From: a virus
Reading direction: 5' to 3' (one strand)
UHGV virus genome: UHGV-1421593
DNA: 32,886 nt
The notes beneath the pieces are model-generated. The model ran no database searches and had not been told where the DNA came from. It saw only the letters and a list, made by a program, of their open reading frames with translations. Made by a program: the position numbers and the translations under genes. This document shows positions 29,674-30,380 of this stretch, one piece after another. Each line of letters begins with the position of its first letter. Positions within the stretch are counted from its first letter, which is position 1.

Positions 29674-29982
29674 ATGAATTTCGATGAAATGTTAGCATCA
29701 CTATCACCAAAACGCGAAGCTGTTGAAATCAACGGTTATAAATTCTATGCACGTCCGATGACTGTATCCGAGTTTGGTGAATTCTATTTCAAAAATGAAA
29801 ACACAGAAGAACGTAATGACCGAATGATTCTAAATTGCATTCAGCACGAAGACGGAACAAGCGTTTTTAAAGAAATCGCTCAAGTTCAGAAACTTTATAC
29901 AACTGTTCGTTCGCAACTCGCAAGCGCTGTTTCAAACGCTAGTATTCTGACTAAGGATTCAGACGTTCTGGAAAAGAACTAA
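29674..29982 (+). CDS. Tail assembly chaperone (lambda gpG-like)
   Basis: 102 aa ORF two genes upstream of the tape measure gene. AAAGGAAAA Shine-Dalgarno. Confidence 0.55.
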   Translation: MNFDEMLASLSPKREAVEINGYKFYARPMTVSEFGEFYFKNENTEERNDRMILNCIQHEDGTSVFKEIAQVQKLYTTVRSQLASAVSNASILTKDSDVLEKN

Positions 29983-30380
29983 GGCAGAACTGGGCAAAAT
30001 CATTTCAGTATCGAACAATGTTACGTCGCGGATTATCAAACGAAGAAATTCAACAGATGTCCGTAATGATGTATTACGAATTATGGTTTTTCGACTCGTT
30101 TATTGAACCACAAAGTCCTGTCTATAACGATTTCTATCAAGCTCGATTGATTCACACTATCGAAGCAAATAACCCGAATCTGACCAAAGAGTACAGGAAA
30201 AAGTTGAACATGAAAGACCATCAGCTTATTAAAGATTCTGTGTTTAAGTCTCAAGAAGAAATCGAAAAAGAGAAAGAACAACAGGAGATTAAACGTAAGA
30301 AAGCTATTGAATCGATGTTCGACCCAGCTCTGTTAGATAAAGTTAAACTGAGAAAAACAAAAAAGGTGAATAATGGCTAA
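29955..30380 (+). CDS. Tail assembly chaperone T-like frame, probably expressed as G-T fusion by -1 frameshift
   Basis: -1 frame is open from 29955; its first ATG (30018) has no Shine-Dalgarno. Heptamer G GAA AAG at 29970-29976 resembles the lambda G/T slip site GGGAAAG. Stop overlaps the tape measure start. Confidence 0.45.
   Translation, partial: GFRRSGKELRQNWAKSFQYRTMLRRGLSNEEIQQMSVMMYYELWFFDSFIEPQSPVYNDFYQARLIHTIEANNPNLTKEYRKKLNMKDHQLIKDSVFKSQEEIEKEKEQQEIKRKKAIESMFDPALLDKVKLRKTKKVNNG

What the first reader, a model, noticed from the sequence alone, without database searches (positions are those of the whole stretch)
29955..30020. Candidate programmed -1 frameshift joining the G-like and T-like chaperone frames
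The T-like frame is open 27 nt upstream of the G-frame stop and has no Shine-Dalgarno before its first ATG. The heptamer G GAA AAG (29970-29976) lies in the overlap and resembles the lambda G/T slippery site GGGAAAG. The frameshifted G-T chaperone is one of the most conserved features of long-tailed phages.
Basis: partly seen in the sequence, partly recalled or inferred. Interest (0 to 1): 0.45.

Follow-up and report, generated by a model that had tools for sequence, protein, structure and literature searches.

The report
Unannotated tail-chaperone frameshift site in prophage
Two small genes just before the tail tape-measure gene of an E. coli-type prophage are almost certainly joined by a programmed backward ribosome slip, as in phage lambda's G/T genes; this is an ordinary phage feature, but no public record annotates it for this family and the slip site is unusually weak-looking.

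Summary
ORF 29674-29982 is a tail assembly chaperone: it hits phrog_344, and its predicted fold best matches the HK97 chaperone 2OB9. The -1 frame is open from 29955 and runs to 30380, next to the tape-measure gene (30373-32772). G GAA AAG sits at 29970-29976 in the G phase. The first T-frame ATG (30018) has no Shine-Dalgarno.

I recovered about 10 diverged lineages of this module, from Enterobacteriaceae prophages, IMG/VR, metagenomes and Escherichia phage DCP80.
- Every lineage keeps a -1 overlap (13-109 nt) with exactly one in-phase A_AAG in it: GAA AAG, GTA AAG, or the canonical T TTA AAG in DCP80.
- The T-frame peptide right after the site is conserved (N5, F10, R13, upstream of the ATG).
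- Between close relatives, 7 of 8 substitutions there are synonymous in the T frame.
- Three sampled lineages have no Met at the ATG position.

Caveats:
- The heptamer is not X XXY YYZ.
- G GAA AAG was an 'unfavourable' control in a published in vitro study.
- I found no conserved stimulatory element.
- No protein data exist.

It is a new, unannotated member of a known kind, of modest interest.

The parts
29674..29982 (+). G-like tail assembly chaperone ORF (102 aa), the zero-frame product
   Evidence: It hits phrog_344 'tail assembly chaperone' at E 1.5e-6; 10 of 11 family members hit phrog_344 and 9 of 11 hit Pfam Phage_TAC_13. The AlphaFold model (pLDDT 80) has the HK97 tail assembly chaperone 2OB9 as top PDB match (prob 1.00, TM 0.57-0.59). 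An SD (AAGGA) precedes the ATG.
29955..29979 (+). G/T overlap: the stretch where both the G frame and the -1 (T) frame are open
   Evidence: The T-frame stop TAA is at 29952-29954. The overlap is 13-109 nt long in relatives.
29970..29976 (+). Proposed slip site G GAA AAG; the conserved core is A_AAG at 29973-29976
   Evidence: It is in the G phase. It is the only Z_ZZN motif in the overlap. It is invariant as NNA AAG in all 10 lineages and is the canonical T TTA AAG in DCP80.
29976..30380 (+). T-like extension read in the -1 frame after the slip (134 aa); with G residues 1-101 it gives a 235-aa G-T fusion
   Evidence: Translation is. The peptide ELRQNWAKSFQYRTMLRRGLS aligns without gaps in 12 loci. 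N5, F10 and R13 are invariant or nearly so and lie upstream of the ATG. Three of 11 relatives hit phrog_337, which lambda T also hits.
30018..30020 (+). First ATG of the T frame; probably an internal Met of the T domain, not a start
   Evidence: No SD precedes it. The position is Ile/Leu in L012/L023, L025 and DCP80. RefSeq instead starts the gene 48 nt further down, at MMYYELW.
29952..29957 (+). SD-like UAAGGA 12 nt upstream of the heptamer; a possible lineage-specific stimulator
   Evidence: The anti-SD duplex is -5.8 kcal/mol. It is absent from the 92%-identical relative and all other lineages, and 19% of random 24-nt windows score as well.
30373..32772 (+). Tail tape-measure protein gene (799 aa), overlapping the T stop by 8 nt
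   Evidence: It hits phrog_13674 at E 2.9e-73 and annotated phage TMPs by tblastn.
29612..29640 (+). Terminator-like hairpin just upstream of G
   Evidence: A 90% identical copy follows the TMP gene.
32776..32798 (+). Terminator-like hairpin just after the TMP gene, closing the G-T-TMP cassette

Best explanation
Genes 29674-29982 and 29976-30380 are the G and T parts of a lambda-type tail assembly chaperone pair.

Most ribosomes translate G and stop at TAA 29980, giving a 102-aa chaperone. A small fraction slip back one base while tRNA-Lys decodes AAG 29974-29976. The tRNA re-pairs with AAA 29973-29975. The P-site tRNA-Glu moves from GAA to GGA, a near-cognate pairing with a second-position mismatch. 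These ribosomes read on in the -1 frame from 29976 and make a 235-aa G-T fusion (...DSDVLEK|ELRQNWAKSFQYRTMLRRGLS...).

By analogy with lambda, G and the G part of G-T coat the tape-measure protein encoded next door, and the T part recruits the major tail protein. The low slip rate would set the G:G-T ratio.

Shown here:
- the anatomy of the two frames and the site;
- that G is a tail assembly chaperone;
- conservation of the overlap and of A_AAG;
- coding constraint in the T frame upstream of any start codon.

Inferred: that slippage occurs at this tetranucleotide, its efficiency, and the roles of G and G-T.
For: 1. G is a tail assembly chaperone. It hits phrog_344. The family hits phrog_344 in 10 of 11 members and Phage_TAC_13 in 9 of 11. 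The best PDB fold match is the HK97 TAC 2OB9.
2. It lies directly upstream of the TMP gene.
3. About 10 lineages, down to 28-35% protein identity, all keep T in the -1 frame, with exactly one in-phase A_AAG inside an overlap of only 4-36 codons. DCP80 has the canonical T TTA AAG three codons downstream of the window's site in the protein alignment, in the same short linker.
4. The T-frame peptide is conserved from the slip site. N5, F10 and R13 lie upstream of the window's ATG.
5. Seven of 8 substitutions between close relatives in the 42 nt before the ATG are synonymous in the T frame, and variation peaks at T-frame codon position 3.
6. No SD precedes any T-frame start. L012/L023 and L025 have no ATG until +75 nt or later, and DCP80 has none at the aligned position. 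Gene callers give T homologues inconsistent lengths of 81-120 aa.
7. A_AA.G is the most shift-prone tetramer in E. coli (PMC4066793), and the hosts are Enterobacteriaceae.
8. T links weakly to lambda T through phrog_337 and an hhalign match at E 0.042.
Against: - No protein-level evidence exists.
- G GAA AAG is not an X XXY YYZ heptamer.
- Exactly this sequence (AUG GAA AAG) was used as the 'unfavourable' control and gave mainly zero-frame product in a reconstituted E. coli system (PMC6924986).
- A_AAG without a stimulator was barely above background in vivo (PMC4066793).
- No conserved downstream RNA structure was found, and no conserved upstream SD-like element.
- A Met occupies this or the adjacent position in 7 of 10 lineages, so some independent initiation cannot be excluded.
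- The lineages are related, so the joint-probability figure overstates significance.
- The window's own G scores below Pfam's curated cut-off (17.7 vs 28.8 bits).
Confidence: 0.85

Rival explanations
1. T is a separate protein that starts at ATG 30018 (or at a later ATG, as RefSeq annotates), perhaps by re-initiation after the G stop 35 nt upstream. No fusion is made.
For: An ATG exists at 30018, and a Met is found at this or the adjacent position in 7 of 10 lineages. The slip site is weak in vitro. RefSeq and other gene callers annotate stand-alone ORFs.
Against: No SD precedes it. Conserved residues and T-frame-synonymous substitutions lie upstream of the ATG. L012/L023, L025 and DCP80 have Ile/Leu there, and their next start codon falls inside the conserved domain. 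In a weak alignment the Met lines up with an internal Met of lambda T. This model also does not explain why A_AAG and the -1 overlap are kept everywhere.
Confidence: 0.07
2. A -1 shift does join G and T, but through P-site slippage of tRNA-Lys on AAG while the ribosome waits at or near the nearby G stop codon (a 'shifty stop'). It is not A-site or tandem slippage during translocation.
For: In 8 of 10 lineages the G stop lies 0-1 codons after AAG: AAG TAA in three, AAG NNN stop in five. The protein product would be identical.
Against: In the window one sense codon (AAC) separates AAG from TAA. In L033 and DCP80 the stop is 10-11 codons away. That stops stimulate such shifts rests on older literature recalled from memory and was not checked here.
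Confidence: 0.05
3. G and T are the remains of one gene broken by a frameshift mutation (a decaying prophage), or the shift comes from a sequencing error or from transcriptional slippage.
For: The element is a prophage with an odd gene order.
Against: The same two-frame arrangement is found in about 10 lineages and six complete E. coli genomes. Both frames show coding constraint. A run of four A is too short for polymerase slippage (established knowledge).
Confidence: 0.02

Closest known systems
Phage lambda G / G-T tail assembly chaperones (-1 frameshift at G GGA AAG; Levin et al. 1993; Xu, Hendrix and Duda 2004, 2013, 2014; summarised in PMC5009743)
   Same: There are two small ORFs directly upstream of the tape-measure gene. 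The second is in the -1 frame, has no start signal of its own, and overlaps the end of the first. The slip ends in A AAG. No strong RNA stimulator was found here. T shares phrog_337 with part of this family.
   Different: The P-site codon is GAA, not GGA, so only tRNA-Lys re-pairs cognately. G is in phrog_344, not lambda's phrog_42, and shows no detectable sequence similarity to lambda G. The pair is not adjacent to the major tail gene, which lies at 23134-23610, 6 kb upstream. The zero-frame stop is one codon after the site, against six in lambda.
HK97 tail assembly chaperone (PDB 2OB9)
   Same: It is the best structural match of the predicted G fold, over the full length (TM 0.57-0.59, prob 1.00).
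   Different: Sequence identity is 16-19%. The Foldseek E-value is only 1e-3, and the query is a predicted model.
Tetranucleotide A_AAG -1 frameshift sites (IS1/IS3 elements; Bacillus subtilis cdd CGA AAG; PMC4066793, PMC5009743)
   Same: The site is NNA AAG, where only the Lys tRNA can re-pair cognately. Only this core is invariant across the family.
   Different: Those sites normally work with a downstream pseudoknot or hairpin, or an upstream SD. No such element is conserved here.
Escherichia phage DCP80 (PQ671644), the only GenBank phage with a detectable G-T relative
   Same: It has a homologous MTP-G-T-TMP module (TMP 38% identity) with -1 overlap and the conserved T N-terminus ADWVKRFRYR.
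   Different: It has a canonical T TTA AAG heptamer, with the stop 10 codons downstream. Both ORFs are filed as hypothetical proteins with no frameshift annotated.

Membership tests
Frameshifted tail assembly chaperone pair (lambda G/G-T type) | Two small ORFs immediately upstream of the tape-measure gene | tested here: met
   G is 29674-29982 and T runs to 30380. The TMP gene starts at 30373.
Frameshifted tail assembly chaperone pair (lambda G/G-T type) | Pair located between the major tail gene and the tape-measure gene | tested here: not met
   The best major-tail candidate (phrog_158) is at 23134-23610. The J-like gene, endonuclease VII and other genes lie between it and G. DCP80 keeps a 164-aa ORF in the major-tail position directly before G; I read it as the major tail protein by inspection and did not scan it.
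Frameshifted tail assembly chaperone pair (lambda G/G-T type) | Second ORF in the -1 frame, overlapping the 3' end of the first and lacking its own initiation signal | tested here: met
Frameshifted tail assembly chaperone pair (lambda G/G-T type) | Canonical X XXY YYZ slippery heptamer in the overlap | tested here: not met
   The window has G GAA AAG. Only DCP80 (T TTA AAG) is canonical. The Z_ZZN tetramer A_AAG is present in all lineages.
Frameshifted tail assembly chaperone pair (lambda G/G-T type) | Arrangement and slip site conserved in diverged relatives, with coding constraint switching frame at the site | tested here: met
Frameshifted tail assembly chaperone pair (lambda G/G-T type) | First ORF has the tail assembly chaperone fold or family | tested here: met
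   phrog_344; HK97 TAC 2OB9 is the top fold match.
Frameshifted tail assembly chaperone pair (lambda G/G-T type) | Second part homologous to lambda T | tested here: inconclusive
   The window's T has no Pfam or PHROG hit. Three of 11 relatives hit phrog_337, as lambda T does. hhalign gives E 0.042 and probability 1%. The T model is of low confidence, and its top BFVD hit, 'Minor tail T domain', is not significant.
Frameshifted tail assembly chaperone pair (lambda G/G-T type) | Fusion protein made at a low fixed ratio and needed for tail assembly | not testable with these tools
   This needs protein detection and genetics.
Pfam PF16459 Phage_TAC_13 | Score at or above the curated gathering threshold (28.8 bits) | tested here: not met
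   The window's G scores 17.7 bits at E 0.0047. Nine of 11 relatives match at E<0.01, best 8.5e-7, and some database homologues carry the precomputed domain.

The most novel reading that the evidence does not exclude
A whole family of Enterobacteriaceae prophage tail chaperones relies on a minimal one-tRNA slip site. The site is A_AAG preceded by GAA or GUA, which cannot re-pair cognately, and it has no RNA structure or SD stimulator. A heptamer that is 'unfavourable' in vitro would then be enough in vivo for an essential programmed frameshift. The zero-frame stop codon 0-1 codons downstream may act as the only helper.
Probability: 0.4. Interest if true: 0.45.

Novelty: new member of a known kind. 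Interest (0 to 1): 0.3.

Why it matters
The practical value lies in annotation. In every public record I saw for this module, G is 'hypothetical' or wrongly 'cytochrome', T is a truncated hypothetical protein with an arbitrary start, and no ribosomal slippage is recorded. The fix is a 235-aa joined CDS.

There is also a small mechanistic point. Evolution has held on to a site, G GAA AAG or more generally NNA AAG, that biochemists use as a poorly slippery control. This makes the family a natural test case for how little signal is needed for a low-level programmed -1 frameshift in enterobacteria.

Tried and rejected
- blastn of the region against GenBank phages: no match.
- The search for homologous proteins with the artificial fusion: no hit. 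Separate G and T queries worked.
- Genome-contig scan: only one small MAG contig, filed under Sphingobacterium, so it gave no usable host information.
- Downstream stimulatory RNA: RNAalifold found no consensus pairs. Single folds were not better than shuffles, except L030 (z -2.2), which is not shared. Rfam gave nothing relevant.
- Upstream SD-like stimulator: present only in the window's closest lineage, and not unusual against background.
- PDB sequence search with G and T profiles: nothing.
- hhalign of G against lambda G: nothing.
- T-domain structure: pLDDT 69 and pTM 0.30, too poor for a fold verdict.
- Other slip sites in the overlap: none. GAT TCA GAC GTT CTG has no Z_ZZN motif.
- Transcriptional slippage: rejected, because the A run is only four bases.
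- Second in-phase A_AAG with a long -1 ORF at 28065: rejected as a frameshift candidate, because the downstream endonuclease VII gene has its own ATG in an ATGA overlap.

Full report
**Observation.**
- ORF 29674-29982 (102 aa) ends ...CTG GAA AAG AAC TAA.
- The frame one base back has a stop at 29952-29954 and is open from 29955 to 30380.
- Its first ATG is at 30018.
- GGAAAAG occupies 29970-29976 and reads G GAA AAG in the G phase.
- T is -1 relative to G (position mod 3 = 0 against 1).
- No Shine-Dalgarno-like 4-mer precedes ATG 30018, whereas the G and TMP starts have AAGGA and AAGGTG.
- The next gene, 30373-32772, is a tape-measure protein (phrog_13674, E 2.9e-73).

**Identity of the two ORFs.**
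- G matches phrog_344 'tail assembly chaperone' (E 1.5e-6) and, below the curated threshold, Pfam Phage_TAC_13 (17.7 bits against 28.8).
- Across 11 diverged family members, 10 hit phrog_344 and 9 hit Phage_TAC_13 (best E 8.5e-7).
- An AlphaFold model of G built on 22 homologues (pLDDT 80, pTM 0.71) has the HK97 tail assembly chaperone 2OB9 as its top PDB match. The match covers the full length (prob 1.00, TM 0.57-0.59, E 1e-3).
- The window's T part has no Pfam or PHROG hit.
- Three of 11 T relatives hit phrog_337 (best E 3.5e-9), and lambda T hits the same family (E 4.7e-7).
- hhalign of the T family against lambda T is weak (E 0.042). It aligns YRTMLRRGLS with lambda's WRAMLAGMS.
- The T model is of low confidence, and its fold search is inconclusive.

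**Relatives.** No GenBank phage matches at the DNA level. By protein, only Escherichia phage DCP80 carries a G-T relative, with both ORFs filed as hypothetical. Scans of IMG/VR, metagenomes and genomes gave about 30 loci falling into about 10 lineages. The protein database places the family in E. coli, Citrobacter, Klebsiella, Salmonella and Enterobacter. Six complete E. coli genomes carry the element at 92-99% identity. In strain E-93 it is a prophage between ybiT and ldtB.

**Comparative test of the frameshift.** In every lineage T is in the -1 frame, and the overlap of 13-109 nt holds exactly one in-phase A_AAG:

| Loci | Sequence at the site |
|---|---|
| window, L001, L002, L011 | CTG GAA AAG AAC TAA |
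| L007, L018, L028 | GTG GAA AAG AAT TAA |
| L010, L013-L016, L026, L027 | CTG GAA AAG TAA |
| L012, L023, L024 | ACA GAA AAG AAA TAA |
| L025 | TCG GAA AAG AAC TAA |
| L017, L029 | ATA GAA AAG CCC TGA |
| L030-L032 | TCG GTA AAG TAA |
| L008, L019, L033 | TCA GTA AAG GAA ... |
| DCP80 | AGT TTA AAG CCG (canonical T TTA AAG) |

- In-phase A_AAG occurs at 0.5% of codons in the window's genes and 0.4% in the rest of the G genes.
- The peptide read in the T frame straight after the site aligns without gaps in 12 loci: ELRQNWAKSFQYRTMLRRGLS, ELRQNPYKIFKFRTMLRRGFT, EIRQNPYKTFQLRAILRRGLS, ALKSNDYKKFKYRTMLRRGFT, VIRANDFLMFKFRTMMRKGLT.
- It still aligns in the 35-38% identical lineages: GNWAKQFRYRQLMRKGLS and ADWVKRFRYRLILRGLL.
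- N5, F10 and R13 are invariant or nearly so, and they are encoded upstream of the window's ATG.
- Between close relatives, 7 of 8 substitutions in the 42 nt before the ATG are synonymous in the T frame. I estimate about 4e-4 by hand, from a binomial that assumes 25% of random substitutions are synonymous. Variability peaks at T-frame codon position 3: 0.33, 0.30, 0.49.
- The Met at 30018 is Ile or Leu in L012/L023, L025 and DCP80. In L012/L023 and L025 the next start codon lies at least 75 nt downstream, inside the conserved domain, and none has an SD.
- Gene callers give T homologues lengths from 81 to 120 aa. RefSeq starts it at MMYYELW, which drops 30 conserved residues.

**Mechanism.** The only element kept across the family is A_AAG. 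In E. coli this is the most shift-prone tetranucleotide (PMC4066793). AAA and AAG are read by one tRNA-Lys, which can pair with both the 0-frame AAG and the -1-frame AAA (PMC6924986).

The codon before it is GAA, GUA or UUA. In the window, tRNA-Glu would shift from GAA to GGA, giving a second-position mismatch. I therefore favour slippage of essentially one tRNA rather than lambda-style tandem slippage. The product is a 235-aa fusion with the junction ...DSDVLEK|ELRQNW....

I found no stimulator:
- RNAalifold predicts no shared pairs, and single folds are no better than shuffles.
- Rfam finds nothing.
- The SD-like UAAGGA 12 nt upstream in the window is missing from the 92%-identical relative and is not unusual against background.
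- One trend may matter: in 8 of 10 lineages the zero-frame stop lies 0-1 codons after AAG.

**Evidence against, and limits.**
- Exactly AUG GAA AAG was used as the 'unfavourable' sequence in a reconstituted E. coli system and gave mainly zero-frame product (PMC6924986).
- A_AAG without a stimulator was barely above background in vivo (PMC4066793).
- Efficiency is therefore probably low. That is compatible with the roughly 30:1 G:G-T ratio needed in lambda (PMC5009743), but it is not shown here.
- Independent initiation at 30018 as an additional route is not excluded.
- The lineages share ancestry, so the naive joint probability of about 1e-14 is an overstatement.

**Comparison and verdict.** This works like lambda G/G-T and meets most membership criteria: position before the TMP gene, -1 overlap without a start signal, a chaperone fold, and conservation. 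It fails two: a canonical heptamer, and adjacency to the major tail gene. It is a new, so far unannotated member of a known kind, with a non-canonical and apparently minimal slip site. Confidence that a G-T fusion is made by a -1 frameshift at 29970-29976 is about 0.85. Interest is modest.

Noticed in passing
window 114-3892 and 23134-32772; L034, L035: The window is a prophage that sits between ybiT and ldtB in E. coli E-93. A large serine recombinase (114-1619) is at the left end and the tape-measure gene is at the extreme right end. Dit-like (3191-3892) and baseplate-hub-like (2544-3191) genes are at the left end on the opposite strand. The major tail gene (23134-23610) and the J-like gene (24084-27773) lie upstream of G/T. 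The tail module is thus split and reordered relative to lambda.
   Followed up: partly
window 29612-29640, 32776-32798, 11219-11247: Three near-identical terminator hairpins (GGGAGC...GCTCCCTTTT) are present. Two of them bracket the G-T-TMP cassette.
   Followed up: partly
proteins P0001, P0002, P0004, P0005, P0008, P0009, P0014, P0018, P0019 (homologues of window 29674-29982): NCBI records name this tail assembly chaperone 'cytochrome', which looks like a propagated misnomer. In RefSeq E. coli genomes it is otherwise 'hypothetical protein'.
   Followed up: partly
window 4925-5821: A 298-aa ORF is annotated in RefSeq as a TIR domain-containing protein. It is a possible prophage-borne defence gene.
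   Followed up: no
L004 (PQ671644 Escherichia phage DCP80, 8463-22874): This record is filed under Straboviridae/Tevenvirinae (141 kb), yet it carries a siphovirus-type tail fibre, major tail, G, T, tape-measure and J-like module, all annotated as hypothetical. The taxonomy or the assembly may be wrong.
   Followed up: no
window 28062-28067 (ORF 27819-28103, then 28100-28576): This is the only other in-phase A_AAG in the window with a long open -1 frame (169 codons, the endonuclease VII gene). That gene has its own ATG in an ATGA stop-start overlap, so it is probably ordinary coupling.
   Followed up: partly
L009 2257-2855: A different chaperone family sits upstream of a related tape-measure gene. 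It has a canonical A AAA AAG in its G/T overlap (GAA ATA AAA AAG GAT).
   Followed up: partly
window 16252-18156: A 634-aa ORF matches both the major head protein and head maturation protease families. It looks like a protease-capsid fusion gene.
   Followed up: no
L003/L022 5001-5324: In one IMG/VR contig the G gene diverges abruptly after residue 83, just before the contig end. This may be a rearrangement or an assembly chimera.
   Followed up: no
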